Positions 14,461 through 19,506 of a stretch of DNA of 33,278 nt are shown piece by piece. The notes below the pieces were generated by a model. The model made no database searches. It was not told the DNA's origin and saw only the letters and a program-made list of their open reading frames with translations. The DNA comes from a virus. Taxonomy: Duplodnaviria > Heunggongvirae > Uroviricota > Caudoviricetes. The position numbers were made by a program, and so were the translations under genes. Numbering within the stretch: the first letter of the stretch is position 1; every line of letters starts with the position of its first letter. Where the stretch lies: the IMG/VR virus record IMGVR_UViG_3300045744_000007, positions 64,001 through 97,278 of that record; one strand, 5' to 3'.

Positions 14461-15510
14461 ATGCCCGACATTCCCTTGCTGAACCCGGTGGTTCTGCGTG
14501 GGGTCATCGAGAAGTTCACCGCCCCCGAGGCGCTGATCATGCTCAACCGCGCCCCTACGACTCCGTGGCCCTTCCCGTCTGCGACCTGGGACGTGATCCG
14601 GGGCTCGCGTGCCGTCGCGAAGCCGAACGTGCCGAACTCCGAGGCTCACATCGTGCCCCGGCTCGGCCGGAGCCAGGAGTCGGCAGCCTTCATCTACCTG
14701 CGGGAGAAGAAGGTCTTCGAGCCGACGACCCTTCACTGGCTGCGTGCTCCGGGCCAGCTCGCGGCGAAGAACGCCGAGGCTGCTGTTCTGCGTGAGATCG
14801 GGGACCTGAACACCCGGTTCGACAACTTCGCAGAGTGGTGTCTCTGGAAAATGTTTACCGGAAATCTGGTTCTGGATTACCCGGACGTTCAGGCGAACAT
14901 CGACTACCAGCTCCCGGCCAGCCACAAGCCGACCTCGGTCGCGACTTCCTGGGCGACCGCGACGCCGCAGCAGATCGTGGCGAACATCCGGGCGTGGAAG
15001 CGGCTCATCAACCGGGATGGTCGTGTCCCGGCTCGTGAGGCGTTCTGCACCGAGCCGACCGTGTCCTACATCTTCGACTCGTTCGCCTCGACGGGTGCTT
15101 CCAACTTCTATGGTGGGACCCTGCTGTCCGACCGGATGAAGGACAGCTACTACGCCAATGGTGTGCTCCCGGCGTTCATGGGCCTGGACTGGACCATCAC
15201 CGAGACGGTCTACGACTCGGCTGGCGCGGCATACACCTCGACGCCCACGGACCCGGGTGCCGAGACGCTGTTCAACCCGGACAATGCCCTTCTCATCGGC
15301 AATTTCACCGAGAACCGGCCATTCGAATTGATGATTGGCCCGACTGCTGACGATGAGGCTCCGGAAGGATTTACCGGAAAGTATTCCAAGACCTGGAAAG
15401 ACAAGGATCCCTCGGCTCGCCAGTACCTGCTCGAATGGATCTTTTTGCCCATCATGACCAGACCGGAGCAATTCGTCTATGTTGCGGATGTTACGGACAC
15501 CACGCCGTAA
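14461..15510 (+). CDS. Major capsid protein (lambda gpE-like)
   Basis: 349 aa after the decoration gene; AAGGAG SD; gpE-like features (WDVIRGSRAVAKPNVPNSEA, C-terminal SKTWKDKDPSARQYLLEWIFLP). Confidence 0.9.
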   Translation: MPDIPLLNPVVLRGVIEKFTAPEALIMLNRAPTTPWPFPSATWDVIRGSRAVAKPNVPNSEAHIVPRLGRSQESAAFIYLREKKVFEPTTLHWLRAPGQLAAKNAEAAVLREIGDLNTRFDNFAEWCLWKMFTGNLVLDYPDVQANIDYQLPASHKPTSVATSWATATPQQIVANIRAWKRLINRDGRVPAREAFCTEPTVSYIFDSFASTGASNFYGGTLLSDRMKDSYYANGVLPAFMGLDWTITETVYDSAGAAYTSTPTDPGAETLFNPDNALLIGNFTENRPFELMIGPTADDEAPEGFTGKYSKTWKDKDPSARQYLLEWIFLPIMTRPEQFVYVADVTDTTP

Positions 15511-15536
15511 CCCGGACATCTGGCTCAGATGAGCAA

Positions 15537-15573
15537 GGAAGCCCCCAGGCTGTAGTTATGTCTGGGGGCTTCC
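15537..15573 (+). terminator. 12-bp perfect hairpin after the MCP gene (terminator/attenuator candidate)
   Basis: GGAAGCCCCCAG-N13-CTGGGGGCTTCC; no U-tract. Confidence 0.6.
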
Positions 15574-15580
15574 CCCGTAT

Positions 15581-16036
15581 GTGTGTGCTGTGAAGCACTG
15601 TCGAAGATGTGATGAGACCAAGCCGTTCTCCGAGTTCTACTGGGACTCGACAAACCAGTGTTATTTCTCGCTGTGTCGTCGTTGTAAGCGACAGGAGTCT
15701 CTTAACTACGCCAAGACCGATGCCGGGAAGGCTGTTCGTTTCAAGGCTCGACTGAAGCATCTCTACAAACTCAGTCTTGAGCAGTACGAAGAGCTGGTCG
15801 AGAGGCAGCAGGGTGTCTGCGCGCTCTGTGGATCTGAGCCTGTTCACTGGCGACGTCTGTCGGTCGATCACGACCATCGATGCTGTCCTTCGGCGAGTAA
15901 GTCGTGTGGGAAGTGTGTGCGAGCCCTGCTCTGCCTGAAGTGCAACAACGGGGTTGGCTGGCTGGAGAATCTCGGAGTCGATCTGGTGCTTGCGTACTTG
16001 GATCAGCGGGCGTTCGACTGGGAGGAGGCGAAGTGA
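15581..16036 (+). CDS. Free-standing endonuclease VII-family (His-Me finger) nuclease with N-terminal Zn-binding domain
   Basis: CxxC...CxxC N-terminus; LSLEQYEELVERQQGVCALC...LSVDHDH...VRALLCLKCNNGVG; visibly AT-richer than its neighbours. Start may be GTG 15590. Confidence 0.9.
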   Translation: MCAVKHCRRCDETKPFSEFYWDSTNQCYFSLCRRCKRQESLNYAKTDAGKAVRFKARLKHLYKLSLEQYEELVERQQGVCALCGSEPVHWRRLSVDHDHRCCPSASKSCGKCVRALLCLKCNNGVGWLENLGVDLVLAYLDQRAFDWEEAK

Positions 16037-16311
16037 GTCTGGGCACTGTCGTTGTTGACGAGCTGATTCTCCTGATTCAGCGCATCGAGCTGCGCGAGGG
16101 GAAGATGTACTTTGTCGCCTCGTGCTCTGGGCCCTGTACGCTCCCTGGTAGGGGAGGGATGGTCCGAGTGCATGGGCACGACGGCTCGCTGATCTTGACG
16201 GCTCCCTGGCTCAGCACCGCCGGTCCGTTGGCTGCCGAGGAGGACCACTCGATTACGGTCTATGTCCCGGTCGGGTTCTCCGGCCCCCTGGCAGACGCTT
16301 CGTGTGCCTGA
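16033..16311 (+). CDS. Hypothetical protein (92 aa)
   Basis: GGAGGAGG SD; GTGA overlap with the endonuclease stop. Confidence 0.65.
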   Translation: MSLGTVVVDELILLIQRIELREGKMYFVASCSGPCTLPGRGGMVRVHGHDGSLILTAPWLSTAGPLAAEEDHSITVYVPVGFSGPLADASCA

Positions 16312-16431
16312 TCGCGTGCGACCTCGACTGCACGGCTGCGTGCCACGAGGAGCACATTCCGACCTGGAAGCGTGAGGGCTGTCCTCAGTGTGAGCAGGCA
16401 TACTCCGAGCCCGATTCTGTAGTTTCTCGGC

Positions 16432-16647
16432 ATGGAGAAGAAGACGGTCCTTCTGGTCGACACCAGTGACGGGAAGCTGCCTCCGGCAGCCGGTGATTTG
16501 GGCAAGACGTCCTTCTGGACGGGGGACACAGTCCCCTTCCCCGGGGACGAGATCGTGACGGTCTGGGGCCCACGAGTCGTGACTCAGCGGAGGTACGACT
16601 CCCGGATCTCGACGGCCCCCTGGACCCTGGCGGTGAAGATGCCATGA
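16432..16647 (+). CDS. Hypothetical protein (71 aa)
   Basis: ORF coupled by an ATGA overlap to the next gene. Confidence 0.55.
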   Translation: MEKKTVLLVDTSDGKLPPAAGDLGKTSFWTGDTVPFPGDEIVTVWGPRVVTQRRYDSRISTAPWTLAVKMP

Positions 16648-17066
16648 GCGATTGGGAGCCCCCGACTGTCCATCCCGAGAAGTGGCCCTGTACCTGTGCC
16701 GTGGAGGGACTGGAAGAGGCCAACCGGGTGAGGGAGTACGTCAAGGATGCGCTCGGCGCAGACGAGTCGGATCTGGTCACCAGGATCGTCTACGACCTGA
16801 ACTCGGAGTACGGGGTGGAGATCGTGGGGATTCACTGTGATCAGTGGGGGGCAGTTCGATCCGAACGCTGGTATCCGATCGTCACTCCCCCGGAGAAGAA
16901 GCCGAGTCTTTTTATGCAGTGTGATCGCATTGAAGACGGCTTCATCTACACCTGGCTGTATTGGAAGCAGGAGACAGAAAGCGAGAAGAGTCGCAATGGT
17001 GCGACGCTCGATGCTGCACGAGATGAGAAAGATCGGCTGGGGCATGGACCAGTCGTCCGCTTCTGA
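16644..17066 (+). CDS. Hypothetical protein (140 aa)
   Basis: ATGA overlap with the upstream gene; coding-like codon usage. Confidence 0.6.
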   Translation: MSDWEPPTVHPEKWPCTCAVEGLEEANRVREYVKDALGADESDLVTRIVYDLNSEYGVEIVGIHCDQWGAVRSERWYPIVTPPEKKPSLFMQCDRIEDGFIYTWLYWKQETESEKSRNGATLDAARDEKDRLGHGPVVRF

Positions 17067-17229
17067 TCTGGCTCGTGCAGCTATCCACCGTATCGACGCC
17101 GAGGACTACGGCTCCGAGCTGGTGACGATGGCAACCCTGGCTTGGGATTCGCAGGAGAAGATTCGTGAACTGGAATGCAGAGTTCGCGAGCTGGAGTCTC
17201 TGGTTGACAACGAGCAACTAACCAACTAA
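17044..17229 (+). CDS. Hypothetical coiled-coil protein (~61 aa)
   Basis: MDQSSASDLARAAIHRID...EKIRELECRVRELESL; start uncertain. Confidence 0.5.
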   Translation: MDQSSASDLARAAIHRIDAEDYGSELVTMATLAWDSQEKIRELECRVRELESLVDNEQLTN

Positions 17230-17238
17230 GCTCGCCGC

Positions 17239-17382
17239 ATGGAGCCATCCGACTTCAACCGAATCTCCTTCCCCCGTGCCGACTTCGGGGGTTGGTCCTA
17301 CGACGTCTTCATCTGTCCCAAGTGCTCCGCCCTCGTTGCAAACCCCGGGGTGCACATCGATAGCGTCCATCCGGAGACCTGA
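17239..17382 (+). CDS. 47-aa micro-protein with CxxC...HxxxxH (putative Zn finger); not in the ORF track
   Basis: Read by hand: MEPSDFNRISFPRADFGGWSYDVFICPKCSALVANPGVHIDSVHPET; fills the gap between neighbours; weak SD. Confidence 0.5.
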   Translation: MEPSDFNRISFPRADFGGWSYDVFICPKCSALVANPGVHIDSVHPET

Positions 17383-17391
17383 GGAGGAGAC

Positions 17392-17490
17392 GTGCGCTAC
17401 GTCCGATCGCTGGCTGAGTGGGGCCTTCTTCTGGCCCTGCTTGGTGTAGCACTGAACGTCTGGATTCTGCCTCTGCTGAGAGCCTCGTGA
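17392..17490 (+). CDS. 32-aa single-pass membrane peptide; not in the ORF track
   Basis: GAGGAGG SD, then MRYVRSLAEWGLLLALLGVALNVWILPLLRAS; its stop overlaps the next start (GTGA). Confidence 0.65.
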   Translation: MRYVRSLAEWGLLLALLGVALNVWILPLLRAS

Positions 17491-17915
17491 TCGTAGGGTT
17501 CTCCGGCACGAGGCAAGGGATGACATCACCTCAGCTAGCGATCGTGGAGCAGTTGCTTCTTCCGACGACGGAGCTTCACCTGGGCGACTGCCTGGGCGCT
17601 GATGCAGAGGCGTACTGGCTCGCTGATGCCCTGCCTGTTCGGCCCCTTCGAGTGGGACACCCTCCCCTCGTCCCGAGCCTCAGGGCCCACCTGGCGTACG
17701 ACGTGGAGCGAGAGCCGCGCCCCTACCTGGAGCGCAATCGATCCATCGTGGAGGAGTCCGAGCTGTTGGTAGGGACTCCTGGAGGGCCGTCCTCGGGCAA
17801 TCGAGGTGGGACCTGGTACACGATCCGGTACGCCATGGGGAAGATCCCGGTCTACGTCGTGATGCCTGAGGGGAAGATCATGGCCTTCAACAAAGAGGGG
17901 CAACGCGTGAACTGA
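17487..17915 (+). CDS. SLOG-superfamily (DprA/YspA-like) nucleotide-binding protein
   Basis: IVGFSGTR, LHLGDCLGAD, YLERNRSIVEESELLVG and GGTWYTIRYA motifs; start reassigned to GTG 17487. Confidence 0.8.
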   Translation: MIVGFSGTRQGMTSPQLAIVEQLLLPTTELHLGDCLGADAEAYWLADALPVRPLRVGHPPLVPSLRAHLAYDVEREPRPYLERNRSIVEESELLVGTPGGPSSGNRGGTWYTIRYAMGKIPVYVVMPEGKIMAFNKEGQRVN

Positions 17916-18006
17916 ATTCAGATTCACGAAGAAGAGTTCTACTTTCAGGCTGGTGGATCTCTTCGCCTATGCTCGACCTGCAATAACCCGACCGAGAGGA
18001 GCACAG

Positions 18007-18450
18007 ATGAGGATTCGTATGTTCGCCCTGCTCGCCGCACCGGTGGTGCTGGCTGGTGGGATGGCGGTGGGCGCGGCTGCGCCCGCGATGGCGAGCGAGT
18101 GGAACCATGGCGTCGTGGACTATGGGGCGATCTACCCCAGTAACCCCGACTACGCGTCGTCCTTCAAGGTCTACACCTACGACAACGTCGTCTCTGGGGG
18201 CTACCGGAGCTTCGAGGCGTTCCGGGTCTCGAAGACGCAGGGGCCGTGTGGCATCGTGGGCGTCTCCATCTTCCACACCGGTCTCGACCGGACGGACAAC
18301 TGGGACCACGCCTGGCCGAATGGCGTGGCGTCCACGGGCATTCAGGACTCCGCCCCGGGCTGGGGCAACCGGTACTTCAAGTCGTTCAACGTCGTCTACA
18401 CGGTCGATACGATCTGTGGGAAGTTCAGGGTCGTGACCCAGCTCCGCTGA
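18007..18450 (+). CDS. Secreted protein (Sec signal peptide, two Cys in the mature part)
   Basis: GAGAGGAG SD; MRIRMFALLAAPVVLAGGMAVGAAAPAMA|SE has basic n-region, hydrophobic h-region and an A-x-A site. Confidence 0.75.
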   Translation: MRIRMFALLAAPVVLAGGMAVGAAAPAMASEWNHGVVDYGAIYPSNPDYASSFKVYTYDNVVSGGYRSFEAFRVSKTQGPCGIVGVSIFHTGLDRTDNWDHAWPNGVASTGIQDSAPGWGNRYFKSFNVVYTVDTICGKFRVVTQLR

Positions 18451-18465
18451 AGAGGGTGATCATCA

Positions 18466-18588
18466 GTGTCTTCGACTGCCTGGGTCAAGGCCAGTAAGTC
18501 CGGAAATTCCGGCAACTGTGTCGAGATGAGGAAAGTTGACGACGAGCACGACGACGGAGTGGACCAAGGCGTCCCGCTGTGCAAATAA
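18466..18588 (+). CDS. 40-aa ORF carrying a DUF397 N-terminal motif (WVKASKSGNSGNCVEMRK); not in the ORF track
   Basis: GAGGG SD 9 nt before GTG; translated by hand. Confidence 0.55.
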   Translation: MSSTAWVKASKSGNSGNCVEMRKVDDEHDDGVDQGVPLCK

Positions 18589-18634
18589 CGGGTGCGTCGA
18601 GGTCAGGAGGGTTGAAAGTGAGCGAGACAACTGA
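18536..18634 (+). CDS. 32-aa ORF carrying a second DUF397 N-terminal motif (WTKASRCANNGCVEVRR); not in the ORF track
   Basis: Frame +1 relative to the previous ORF; TTG start with a very short SD spacing, so it may instead be entered by frameshift. Confidence 0.45.
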   Translation: MTTSTTTEWTKASRCANNGCVEVRRVESERDN

Positions 18635-18842
18635 GTGGATCAGGGCCTCTCGCTGTACGACGGATGGCTGTGTGGAGGCGCGCTCGAGTAGCGCGCGAAT
18701 CGAGGTGCGTGACTCCAAGCTGGGTGACGACTCTCCGATTCTGTCCTTCACTGTGGCCGAGTGGGAAGCATGGCTCGATGGGGCCAAGAAAGGGGAGTTC
18801 GATTTCCTCCTGGGAGGGGTTGAAGGTACGCCTTCGGCCTGA
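18618..18842 (+). CDS. DUF397 (BldB-like) family protein, 74 aa
   Basis: WIRASRC...GCVE...EVRDSK...PILSFTVAEWEAWLDGAKKGEFD is the canonical DUF397 pattern; AGGAGGG SD 6 nt before GTG 18618. Confidence 0.88.
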   Translation: MSETTEWIRASRCTTDGCVEARSSSARIEVRDSKLGDDSPILSFTVAEWEAWLDGAKKGEFDFLLGGVEGTPSA

Positions 18843-18880
18843 CTAGGGTCTGGATCGAACTTCCCTTGCTCTCCCTCAAA

Positions 18881-18916
18881 CGAAGCTCCCGGGTTCCCCT
18901 CCTCCCGGGAGCTTCG
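18881..18916 (+). terminator. 13-bp perfect hairpin terminator ending the accessory island
   Basis: CGAAGCTCCCGGG-N10-CCCGGGAGCTTCG followed by TGCTGTTT. Confidence 0.75.
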
Positions 18917-18990
18917 TGCTGTTTGGAGCCCGAATCCTCTTGCCGATGGTCTATTCGACCCGGGCCGTCGATTCGAGGAGGGCTTGACCC

Positions 18991-19506
18991 GTGGCGCGTG
19001 GACAGAGCAGTCGTGATCTGTTGGGCGATGACACGTCGGTGCCGGAGGTGCCTTCTCCCTCCAAGGTGTTCGAGCCGTCGCTGGACGTCGAGAGGCCGAC
19101 CCCGGAAGCTGAGCTGACCCCGGACCAGAAGAAGATCCGGGATCTGGAGCACCGGCTGGCGCAGGCCGAGACGAAGAAGTTCGACACGGCAGCCGAGGAG
19201 CTGGACGAGCTGGGCGAGGACGGCTCGAAGACAATCCTCATCCACATCCTCAAGGACGGATTCACTGCCCTGGATCGGGTCTGGTACCGGGGGCAGGAGA
19301 TCGAGTTCGAGGTCGGTGGGCGCGCTCATGAGCAGACCAAGGATCGGACCGGTCAGTCCTGGCTCGCCTTCGATGAGGGAGAGCAGATGCGGCGCTGGGG
19401 CGACGTGATGTTCCGGAGAGGTCCCTGGCCGGGCTCCGGTTGGGCCGATACCGCCGCCGCAGAGGCTGAGCGGAAGCGCGCTCGAAGGGCCCCGGTGATC
19501 AAGTGA
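18991..19506 (+). CDS. Hypothetical protein (171 aa)
   Basis: GAGGAGG SD; high GC3; first gene of a tightly coupled run. Confidence 0.75.
   Translation: MARGQSSRDLLGDDTSVPEVPSPSKVFEPSLDVERPTPEAELTPDQKKIRDLEHRLAQAETKKFDTAAEELDELGEDGSKTILIHILKDGFTALDRVWYRGQEIEFEVGGRAHEQTKDRTGQSWLAFDEGEQMRRWGDVMFRRGPWPGSGWADTAAAEAERKRARRAPVIK

What the first reader, a model, noticed from the sequence alone, without database searches (positions are those of the whole stretch)
18451..18842. Three DUF397 N-terminal motifs stacked in three successive +1 frames
Seen: WVKASKSGNSGNCVEMRK (W at 18481), WTKASRCANNGCVEVRR (18560) and WIRASRCTTDGCVEARS (18636) are spaced 79 and 76 bp apart, so each is +1 to the last; only the third continues into a full DUF397 domain. 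The motif is kept while codons differ (the conserved Ser is AGT, TCC, TCT). Both junctions read GAG-NNN-AGG-ARR-GTT-GA, with a TTG exactly 24 nt before the next Trp. Junction 1 has AAA-G behind an SD-like GAGG; junction 2 has AGG-AGG. Established: DUF397 includes the Streptomyces developmental regulator BldB and partners of XRE/WhiJ-like proteins; an internal SD (prfB) and AGG-AGG pairs in E. coli promote +1 shifts. Inference: either programmed +1 frameshifting yields 1-, 2- or 3-motif isoforms, or overlapping micro-peptides act as mimics of a host regulator interface.
Basis: partly seen in the sequence, partly recalled or inferred. Interest (0 to 1): 0.72.

Follow-up and report, generated by a model that had tools for sequence, protein, structure and literature searches.

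The report
Out-of-frame triplicated start of phage DUF397 gene
An uncultured actinobacterial phage carries a small BldB-type (DUF397) gene whose first 76-79 bases (ribosome site, start, first beta-hairpin) are repeated three times, so each copy sits one frame further on; this looks like a split version of a common in-frame multi-hairpin protein rather than a proven ribosomal frameshift.

Summary
Three ORFs (18466-18588, 18536-18634, 18618-18842) each match Pfam DUF397. The first two cover only profile positions 2-26; the third covers the whole domain.

The +1/+1 stacking follows from a tandem triplication of a 76-79 nt unit of length 3n+1. The unit holds the SD, the start, a Ser/Thr leader and the N-terminal hairpin W-x-K-A-S...C-V-E-x-R-[RK]-V.

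In-frame DUF397 proteins with 2-4 such hairpins proved common in phages and Actinomycetes. I found no out-of-frame case other than this window.

The best relative, P0008 (90 aa), is an in-frame two-unit sibling with the same 26-codon period and an internal Met where the window has GTG 18618. Measured against it, both window junctions are two bases short just before that start.

The units are only about 63% identical in DNA, yet each still scores as a good DUF397 hairpin, which neutral decay does not explain.

Best reading: a fissioned multi-hairpin gene. ORF3 is made from its own strong SD and GTG, and units 1 and 2 are short overlapping ORFs encoding free hairpin peptides. Programmed +1 frameshifting is not excluded (about 0.12), because unit 2 has only a weak TTG start. 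No close relative exists to test conservation.

The parts
17953..18450 (+). Upstream gene (165 aa, signal-peptide-like N-terminus). Its TGA stop is at 18448-18450. It lies in the same transcription direction and is context only.
   Evidence: ORF list. No Pfam match. No relative in IMG/VR.
18450..18465 (+). SD-like AAGAGGG (18450-18456) and a 9-nt spacer before the unit 1 start.
   Evidence: Read from the sequence.
18466..18588 (+). Unit 1 ORF, frame 1, GTG start, 40 aa. It holds the leader MSSTAW, the hairpin motif (Trp at 18481) and an out-of-frame acidic tail ending at TAA.
   Evidence: 27.3 bits, profile 2-26; 26.2 bits on my own motif model; 12/25 identical to unit 1 of P0008, including the N-terminus and RKVD.
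18526..18559 (+). Junction 1: ATG-AGG-AAA-GTT-GAC-G-ACG..GAG. It contains a weak SD (GAGG, 18528-18531) and TTG at 18536. The position that matches the GTG start of units 1 and 3 is ACG (18542).
   Evidence: 22/34 identical to junction 2, in one register. Its 0-frame codons are rare in this phage: AAA 1.9, AGG 4.0 and GTT 8.5 per 1000.
18536..18634 (+). Unit 2 ORF, frame 2, TTG start, 32 aa. It holds the leader MTTSTTTEW and the hairpin motif (Trp at 18560), and ends at a TGA one base before the third Trp codon.
   Evidence: 24.1 bits; 25.4 bits; 14/23 identical and 18/23 similar to unit 1 of P0008, through RRV.
18602..18635 (+). Junction 2: GTC-AGG-AGG-GTT-GAA-A-GTG..GAG. It contains a strong SD (AGGAGGG, 18605-18611) placed 6 nt before GTG 18618.
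18618..18842 (+). ORF3: a complete 74-aa DUF397 protein from GTG 18618 (MSETTEW..., Trp at 18636). An 87-aa reading from GTG 18579 is possible but has no SD.
   Evidence: 49 bits, profile 2-55 of 55; 27/59 identical to P0008 residues 31-89.
18880..18926 (+). Intrinsic terminator: a 14-bp GC-rich stem (18880-18893 paired with 18904-18917) followed by GCTGTTT. It closes the accessory gene block.
   Evidence: One search found the inner stem at 18891-18914 with a T-rich tail. I read the longer stem from the sequence.

Best explanation
This is an out-of-phase, three-unit version of the multi-hairpin DUF397 architecture.

The repeated unit is 76 nt (79 in the first copy). It holds the ribosome-binding site, the start codon, a short Ser/Thr leader and the first beta-hairpin of the domain (W-x-K-A-S...C-V-E-x-R-[RK]-V). 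It stands three times in tandem. Because its length is 3n+1, each copy is +1 to the one before.

The ancestor was probably an in-frame two-unit gene like P0008 with an internal start. A 2-nt loss in the codon just before that internal start split the gene. The out-of-frame unit was then duplicated once more.

Today the complete 74-aa DUF397 protein is made on its own from the strong SD AGGAGGG and GTG 18618 (inferred from sequence signals and homology). Unit 1 (good SD, GTG) and unit 2 (weak SD, TTG) are short overlapping ORFs of 40 and 32 aa that encode free hairpin peptides (inferred).

DUF397/BldB proteins oligomerise with paralogues, and many natural relatives carry 2-4 hairpins in one chain. 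The free hairpins therefore most likely act by beta-sheet addition, either to ORF3 or to host DUF397/WhiJ-type partners (speculative).
For: 1. Anatomy and Pfam matches.

2. The units are DNA-level tandem copies. Unit 1 against unit 2 and unit 2 against unit 3 each give 48/76, about 6 sd above the null.

3. The two junctions align without a gap over all 34 nt (22/34). The frame offset is therefore shared by descent and is older than the roughly 37% divergence of the copies.

4. The hairpins were kept under selection. Each scores 25-28 bits on a motif model built from 67 motifs of other loci. Copies given only 9-12 random substitutions reach 25.4 bits in at most 0.1% of 3000 trials. GC3 is highest in each unit's own frame: 0.70, 0.82 and 0.74.

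5. Unit 2 is closer to unit 1 of the in-frame relative P0008 (61% identity) than ORF3 is to the rest of P0008 (46%).

6. P0008 has the same 26-codon period, and its linker MILDEQW echoes its own N-terminus MISSEW. Its Met26 lies five residues before the Trp, as GTG 18618 does. Some cluster members are called from that internal start as 65-aa proteins.

7. The leaders match the real N-termini of single-domain relatives.

8. The junction codons AGG-AAA-GTT and AGG-AGG-GTT-GAA-AGT are very rare in this phage's genes. That fits a constraint from the SD and start of the next unit.

9. In-frame 2-4x hairpin DUF397 genes are common.
Against: Unit 2 has poor initiation signals. Its only start is TTG, 4 nt after a 4-base GAGG, and the position of the family start codon is ACG. 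Yet its peptide is the best conserved of the three, so independent initiation of unit 2 is the weak step.

No free hairpin-only DUF397 mini-protein was found in the protein collections. The search with unit 1 found nothing, and the search for 30-48 aa relatives of P0008 found nothing. These word-based searches are insensitive for such short queries.

No close relative of the locus exists in any collection searched. Conservation of the layout is therefore untested.

The '2-nt loss' is therefore inferred from protein alignment only.
Confidence: 0.6

Rival explanations
1. Programmed +1 ribosomal frameshifting at one or both junctions. Ribosomes starting at unit 1 would slip on AGG-AAA-G (junction 1) and AGG-AGG-G (junction 2). 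They would make two- and three-hairpin DUF397 isoforms, up to 124 aa, alongside the free 74-aa protein.
For: A double +1 reading gives a stop-free 124-aa protein. Its unit 2 and unit 3 part is collinear with the whole in-frame relative P0008: 41/89 identical, E 2e-27.

Covalently linked multi-hairpin proteins are the normal form elsewhere.

Unit 2 is under selection but lacks a good start.

The junction 0-frame codons are the rarest in the phage, with AAA at 1.9 and AGG at 4.0 per 1000.

By base-pairing rules, AAA-G lets tRNA-Lys re-pair on AAG, and AGG-G lets tRNA-Arg(CCU) re-pair on GGG (my own reasoning).

The 0-frame TGA of junction 2 sits one base before the next Trp codon.
Against: No prfB-type signature is present. 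The stop is not at the candidate slip sites. Junction 1 has GGA where junction 2 has TGA. The SD-like runs are 0 nt or 18 nt from the candidate P-site codons, not about 3 nt.

ORF3 has a canonical SD, GTG and family-type N-terminus of its own, so most product would be unshifted. A three-hairpin product needs two rare events in series.

Every 'signal' is equally explained as the initiation region of the next copy. No relative is available to show conservation, and none of more than 20 other stacked loci uses a frame change.
Confidence: 0.12
2. Relic. Only ORF3 is functional. Units 1 and 2 are untranslated or useless leftovers of an older multi-hairpin gene, or of 5' duplications, and have not yet decayed.
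For: Unit 2 has lost the family start codon (GTG to ACG) and part of its SD (GGAGGG to GGAAAG). This out-of-frame layout was not seen in 401 Actinomycetes genomes or in the IMG/VR subset scanned. That is what one expects of an accident rather than a maintained design. No hairpin-only mini-proteins were found.
Against: The shared register of the two junctions makes the frame break older than the roughly 37% divergence between copies. Over that distance neutral copies would lose the motif, with at most 0.1% of simulated copies reaching the observed score. They would also often gain stops: 27-34% of simulated copies with 9-12 changes did. Unit 2 is more similar to its P0008 counterpart than the functional domain is. 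Own-frame GC3 is retained.
Confidence: 0.2
3. Sequencing or assembly artefact. The real phage has one in-frame three-hairpin gene, and two single-base errors at matching junction positions create the offsets.
For: The record is a metagenome assembly whose reads I cannot see. Both offsets lie at homologous sequence, where a systematic error could recur.
Against: The same window holds uninterrupted ORFs of 2029, 1485, 734 and 623 aa, so the indel error rate is very low. The junctions contain no homopolymer longer than 3. The offsets coincide with a working SD and start layout.
Confidence: 0.03

Closest known systems
DUF397 / BldB family (Pfam PF04149). These are small actinobacterial proteins, usually encoded next to XRE/WhiJ-type (HTH_31 with DUF5753) regulators. 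Example pairs are Scr1/Scr2 and WhiJ9/BldB9.
   Same: ORF3 is a full-length member (49 bits, profile 2-55 of 55). It has the family motifs: KASxx...CVE in strands 1-2, VRDSK, and the C-terminal helix (PMC10294661; PMC7159879). Family members oligomerise with paralogues (PMC10294661).
   Different: The gene is phage-borne and orphan. No DUF5753 match was found in the 97-kb record, though that search's control genomes also failed to ring. It sits in an accessory block inside the head-gene module. Two extra out-of-frame copies of the first hairpin precede it.
In-frame multi-hairpin DUF397 proteins. Examples are the P0008 cluster (90 aa, 2 units), phage loci L019, L027 and L102 (3 units), L093 (4 or more), Actinosynnema L053 (3 units) and Glycomyces L042, L048, L052 and L054 (2 units).
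   Same: The same repeated module (Trp...CVE hairpin) stands before a single C-terminal half. P0008 shares the 26-codon period, the RRV tail, a linker derived from the gene's own N-terminus, and an internal start.
   Different: All of those are in one reading frame: W-to-W distances of 45-81 nt, all multiples of 3. In the window the distances are 79 and 76 nt, so the units are separate ORFs.
prfB (RF2) programmed +1 frameshift, and the +1 shifts at tandem rare AGG codons in E. coli (my own knowledge of the literature, not re-read here).
   Same: There is an SD-like purine run inside a coding frame. Rare AGG-AGG and AGG-AAA codons are present. A 0-frame UGA lies at the end of junction 2.
   Different: There is no CUU-U-type slip codon next to the stop. 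The SD spacing is wrong. Junction 1 has no stop. There is no evidence of conservation. The downstream frame has its own start.
Tandem arrays of whole DUF397 genes. Examples are phage locus L024 with three full genes, and four adjacent DUF397 matches on contig C3 of genome G008 (the genome of Streptomyces locus L063). Kaur et al. 2020 (PMC7159879) note multiple tandem copies.
   Same: Several DUF397 coding units lie head to tail in different frames.
   Different: Those units are complete genes about 250-330 nt apart. Here only the first 76 nt of the gene is repeated.

Membership tests
DUF397 / BldB (PF04149) | Match to the Pfam model above the gathering score (24 bits) | tested here: met
   ORF3 scores 49 bits over the full length. 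Unit 1 scores 27.3 and unit 2 scores 24.1, both covering the N-terminal half only. With E-values scaled to the whole record, unit 2 scores 22.8 bits, just under the cut-off.
DUF397 / BldB (PF04149) | Genomic pairing with an XRE/WhiJ-type (HTH_31 with DUF5753) gene | tested here: inconclusive
   No DUF5753 match was found in the 97-kb record, but the control genomes did not ring either and the record is about 72% complete. No HTH gene is adjacent. By contrast, Saccharomonospora phage PIS 136 has the canonical HTH_31-DUF397 pair.
In-frame multi-hairpin DUF397 proteins | Two or more Trp...CVE hairpin motifs in one open reading frame before a single C-terminal half | tested here: not met
   The motifs lie in frames 1, 2 and 3, with stops at 18586-18588 and 18632-18634. 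Only a hypothetical double +1 reading joins them.
Programmed +1 frameshift site (prfB type) | A slip-prone P-site codon directly followed by a 0-frame stop or hungry codon | tested here: inconclusive
   AAA-G and AGG-G allow re-pairing, and AAA and AGG are rare codons. But the next 0-frame codon is GTT in both junctions. The only stop (TGA 18632) follows AAC, which cannot re-pair.
Programmed +1 frameshift site (prfB type) | An SD-like stimulator about 3 nt upstream of the slip codon | tested here: not met
   GAGG abuts AAA (0 nt) in junction 1. In junction 2 the AGGAGG run is itself the candidate slip site and lies 18 nt from AAC-TGA.
Programmed +1 frameshift site (prfB type) | Conservation of the site and of both frames in relatives | not testable with these tools
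   No relative with this layout was found in IMG/VR, GTDB genomes, JGI metagenomes or INPHARED.
Tandem segmental duplication | DNA-level similarity of successive units, including non-motif parts, with a constant period | tested here: met
   48/76 for both neighbouring pairs, against a null of 23 with sd 4. The junctions match at 22/34 in one register. The periods are 79 and 76 nt and differ by one loop codon.

The most novel reading that the evidence does not exclude
The phage expresses a DUF397 hairpin 'ladder' from one short locus by ribosomal +1 frameshifting at rare-codon junctions (AGG-AAA-G and AGG-AGG-G). It would make one-, two- and three-hairpin isoforms in set ratios. This would rebuild by recoding the multi-hairpin proteins that relatives encode in frame, and it would be a new bacterial or phage +1 frameshift site type.
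Probability: 0.12. Interest if true: 0.75.

Novelty: new variant of a known kind. Interest (0 to 1): 0.42.

Why it matters
DUF397/BldB proteins are abundant regulators of Streptomyces development and antibiotic production, and their biochemical mechanism is unknown. This work shows two things.

First, the N-terminal hairpin is a modular unit. It is repeated 2-4 times in many natural proteins of phages and Actinomycetes. I did not find that architecture described in the papers I searched.

Second, in this phage the hairpins have been kept under selection even though they are encoded apart from the rest of the domain. If free 32-40 aa hairpins are active, they point to the hairpin as the interaction surface of the family. 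They would also give a minimal tool to probe BldB/WhiJ circuits.

If instead the units are joined by frameshifting, this would be a rare new +1 recoding case. If neither holds, it is simply an odd, decaying duplication in an accessory phage gene.

Tried and rejected
Searches for a close relative of the locus all failed:
- blastn and tblastn against INPHARED;
- the upstream neighbour, ORF3 and a profile in IMG/VR;
- GTDB genomes;
- JGI metagenomes;
- the junction signature in IMG/VR.
The best relatives are about 50-60% identical and none has the layout.

Syntenic relatives found through the downstream 171-aa gene lack DUF397 at this place.

The DNA of P0001-P0003 and of the P0008 cluster could not be read. 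A search for P0008 in IMG/VR found nothing.

The window's ORFs are not in the protein collection as exact sequences.

Ideas rejected:
- Diversity-generating retroelement: the differences between units are not confined to adenines.
- Hypermutable tract that sets the frame, a lead from earlier notes e1-3643017 and e1-4207009: there is no homopolymer longer than 3 and no di- or tetranucleotide repeat in 18440-18640.
- Three full genes each truncated by a deletion: the two junctions are homologous in one register, so they arose once.
- Known RNA element: Rfam gave only chance hits on the terminator.

The RNA fold of 18440-18700 is only modestly more stable than shuffles (z -2.5) and shows no evident stimulatory structure.

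DUF397 has no solved structure by sequence search. The AlphaFold model of P0008 (pLDDT 81) has no significant PDB fold match.

Full report
**What is there**

The window is bases 64001-97278 of a 97-kb IMG/VR virus record, about 72% complete. GC content is 63%, and GC3 of the long genes is about 0.75-0.86.

Three + strand ORFs lie at 18466-18842:
- unit 1: 18466-18588, frame 1, GTG start, 40 aa;
- unit 2: 18536-18634, frame 2, TTG start, 32 aa;
- ORF3: 18618-18842, frame 3, GTG start, 74 aa. An 87-aa reading from 18579 is also open.

Each matches Pfam DUF397. Unit 1 scores 27.3 bits and unit 2 scores 24.1 bits, both over profile positions 2-26 only. ORF3 scores 49 bits over positions 2-55 of 55. 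They are the only DUF397 matches in the record.

These are the Trp codons at 18481, 18560 and 18636, the spacings of 79 and 76 nt, the Ser codons AGT, TCC and TCT, the junction consensus, and TTG 24 nt before the second and third Trp.

**Anatomy of the repeat**

Each unit consists of:
- an SD-like run: AAGAGGG before unit 1, GAGG-AAAG before unit 2, AGGAGGG before unit 3;
- a start codon;
- a short Ser/Thr leader: MSSTAW, MTTSTTTEW, MSETTEW;
- the hairpin motif W-x-[KR]-A-S...C-V-E;
- in units 1 and 2, the tail x-R-[KR]-V-[DE].

The copies are related at the DNA level:
- W-anchored unit 1 against unit 2 gives 48/76 identical, with one codon gap. The null from 5000 random 76-mers has mean 23.4, sd 4.0 and maximum 37.
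- TTG-anchored unit 2 against unit 3 gives 48/76, the best non-self match in the window.
- The two junctions (18526-18559 and 18602-18635) match at 22/34 with no gap.

The period is therefore 76 nt, with one extra loop codon in unit 1. A 3n+1 period places every copy +1 to the previous one. The 'stacking in successive +1 frames', the shared junction sequence and the TTG at a fixed distance are all consequences of one tandem duplication pattern. They are not independent coincidences.

**Context**

In related phages the major capsid gene is followed closely by the homologue of the 171-aa gene at 18991. Here about 3.5 kb of accessory genes lie between them. The last of these are a secreted-looking 165-aa protein and the DUF397 locus. 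A strong terminator hairpin at 18880-18926 closes the block.

The related phages lack DUF397 at this place. No XRE/DUF5753 partner was found in the record, but that search's controls also failed to ring, so this is weak evidence.

**Multi-hairpin DUF397 proteins are common, and in frame**

I looked at DUF397 loci from several sources and found many genes in which the same N-terminal motif is repeated 2, 3 or more times in one frame before a single C-terminal half.

- IMG/VR phage loci: L019, L027 and L102 have 3 units, L093 has 4 or more, and L018, L020, L029, L092, L096, L097 and L103 have 2.
- GTDB genomes: Actinosynnema L053 has 3 units. Stackebrandtia L039, Streptomyces L063 and Glycomyces L042, L048, L052, L054, L055 and L058 have 2. 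Related Glycomyces loci L044, L047, L049 and L050 have only 1.
- A profile scan of three actinobacterial genomes gave 91 matches. About ten were partial upstream hairpins, all at 51, 54 or 63 nt from the next motif.
- A DNA pattern for two motifs separated by a long linker found 12 genuine pairs in 401 Actinomycetes genomes. Their W-to-W distances were 69, 72, 78 or 81 nt, all in frame. The other 11 hits were non-DUF397 chance matches, against 24 hits for the reversed control pattern. Two of the 401 genomes, G043 and G311, are unpublished.
- About 43% of the 150 best representatives in the exhaustive protein search have two or more matched stretches.

The window is the only out-of-frame case I found.

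**An in-frame sibling**

The best hit in 1.8 billion representatives is P0008 (90 aa, E 3e-15). It has two units with the same long period: Trp6 to Trp32, 26 codons.

- Its unit 1 ends in CVEVRRVDG.
- Its linker MILDEQW echoes its own N-terminus MISSEW, so there too the duplicated unit included the start codon and leader.
- Some cluster members are called from the internal start as 65-aa proteins, and others as 71-aa proteins.
- Window unit 2 is 14/23 identical to unit 1 of P0008, through RRV.
- Window unit 1 is 12/25 identical, including the N-terminus and RKVD.
- ORF3 is 27/59 identical to the rest of P0008.
- GTG 18618 and Met26 of P0008 both lie five residues before the Trp.

Upstream of that start, P0008 reads V-R-R-V-D-G. 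The window reads GTC-AGG-AGG-GTT-GAA-A before GTG in junction 2, and ATG-AGG-AAA-GTT-GAC-G before ACG in junction 1. Both junctions are thus two bases short in the codon just before the internal start.

This localisation is inferred from protein alignment only.

**Age and selection**

The two junctions keep one register over their whole length. The frame break therefore arose once, before units 1 and 2 diverged to 63% identity.

Over that divergence the hairpins stayed family-like. On a motif model built from 67 hairpins of other loci they score 26.2, 25.4 and 27.7 bits. Copies of unit 2 or unit 3 given only 9-12 random substitutions, about half the observed differences, reach 25.4 bits in at most 0.1% of 3000 trials. 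They acquire stops in 27-34% of trials.

GC3 is highest in each unit's own frame: 0.70, 0.82 and 0.74. Unit 2 is more similar to its P0008 counterpart than the functional C-terminal domain is.

I conclude that units 1 and 2 have been translated in their own frames for a long time (inference). This argues against a recent pseudogene.

A sequencing artefact is also unlikely. The window holds intact ORFs of 2029 and 1485 aa, and the junctions have no homopolymer longer than 3.

**How the units are translated**

ORF3 has AGGAGGG 6 nt before GTG and an N-terminus like those of single-domain relatives such as MSGSTEW and MTSRTTEW. Its independent initiation is the best-supported step.

Unit 1 has AAGAGGG 9 nt before GTG.

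Unit 2 is the problem. Its only start is TTG, 4 nt after a 4-base GAGG, and the family start position is ACG.

The junction codons in the upstream frame are among the rarest in this phage. AAA is used 1.9, AGG 4.0, GTT 8.5, GAA 9.1 and AGT 10.3 times per 1000 codons. So these bases are constrained by something other than that frame's coding. The SD and start of the next unit is the simple explanation. A frameshift site is the alternative.

A hypothetical double +1 reading gives a stop-free 124-aa three-hairpin protein. Its unit 2 and unit 3 part is collinear with all of P0008 (41/89 identical).

Against frameshifting:
- there is no slip codon beside a stop;
- junction 1 has GGA where junction 2 has TGA;
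- the SD-like runs are at the wrong distance for a prfB-type stimulator;
- ORF3 has its own start;
- conservation cannot be tested.

I put frameshifting at about 0.12, a non-functional relic at about 0.2, and an artefact at about 0.03.

**Function**

DUF397 has four beta-strands and a terminal helix. CxE lies in strand 2 and RDS near the end of strand 3. It has been proposed to act through multimers (PMC7159879). BldB hetero-oligomerises with its paralogues (PMC10294661). XRE-DUF397 pairs act as pleiotropic regulators rather than toxin-antitoxin pairs (PMC6262351, PMC10364602).

An AlphaFold model of P0008 (pLDDT 81) shows the extra unit as a separate hairpin (strands 6-8 and 19-21). A low-confidence linker (residues 24-28) joins it to the core. 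No solved structure resembles it.

My mechanistic proposal is as follows. The phage's orphan DUF397, with its free hairpins, binds host DUF397 or WhiJ-type partners by beta-sheet addition and perturbs host regulation. This is inference only.

**Verdict**

It is a new, frame-split variant of a widespread multi-hairpin DUF397 architecture. The frameshifting idea is open but unsupported by defining features.

Noticed in passing
L019, L027, L053, L093, L102, L042, L048, L052 and L054 (other loci); P0008, P0020, P0021, P0026, P0063: DUF397 proteins with 2 to 4 or more in-frame copies of the N-terminal hairpin before one C-terminal half are widespread in phages and Actinomycetes. Copy number differs between related Glycomyces loci (1x or 2x). 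I found no description of this architecture in the papers searched.
   Followed up: partly
window 15511-18990: About 3.5 kb of accessory genes lie between the major capsid gene (14461-15510) and the next conserved head-module gene (18991-19506). In related phages these two genes are adjacent or much closer. The block ends with a secreted-looking 165-aa protein, the DUF397 locus and a terminator.
   Followed up: partly
window 18880-18926: A strong intrinsic terminator (14-bp GC-rich stem, then GCTGTTT) lies inside the structural gene module, directly after the DUF397 gene.
   Followed up: no
L024:1002-1720; four adjacent DUF397 matches on contig C3 of genome G008 (the genome of Streptomyces locus L063): Tandem arrays of three (phage) and four (Streptomyces) complete DUF397 genes, about 250-330 nt apart and in different frames.
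   Followed up: no
L030:1181-1330: In an Actinomycetota MAG, a DUF397-like ORF upstream of a normal one loses the family sequence after the CVE motif and stops early. It is probably a frameshifted paralogue or an assembly indel.
   Followed up: no
L093 (IMG/VR contig end): A phage DUF397 protein with at least four hairpins also carries a second copy of the C-terminal helix segment (..GEWEAFVQGVNAGEFD) after the first. This suggests the C-terminal half can be duplicated too.
   Followed up: no
L105 (Saccharomonospora phage PIS 136, 87284-88317): A cultured phage carries a canonical HTH_31 (XRE) plus DUF397 gene pair. The window's DUF397 has no such neighbour.
   Followed up: no
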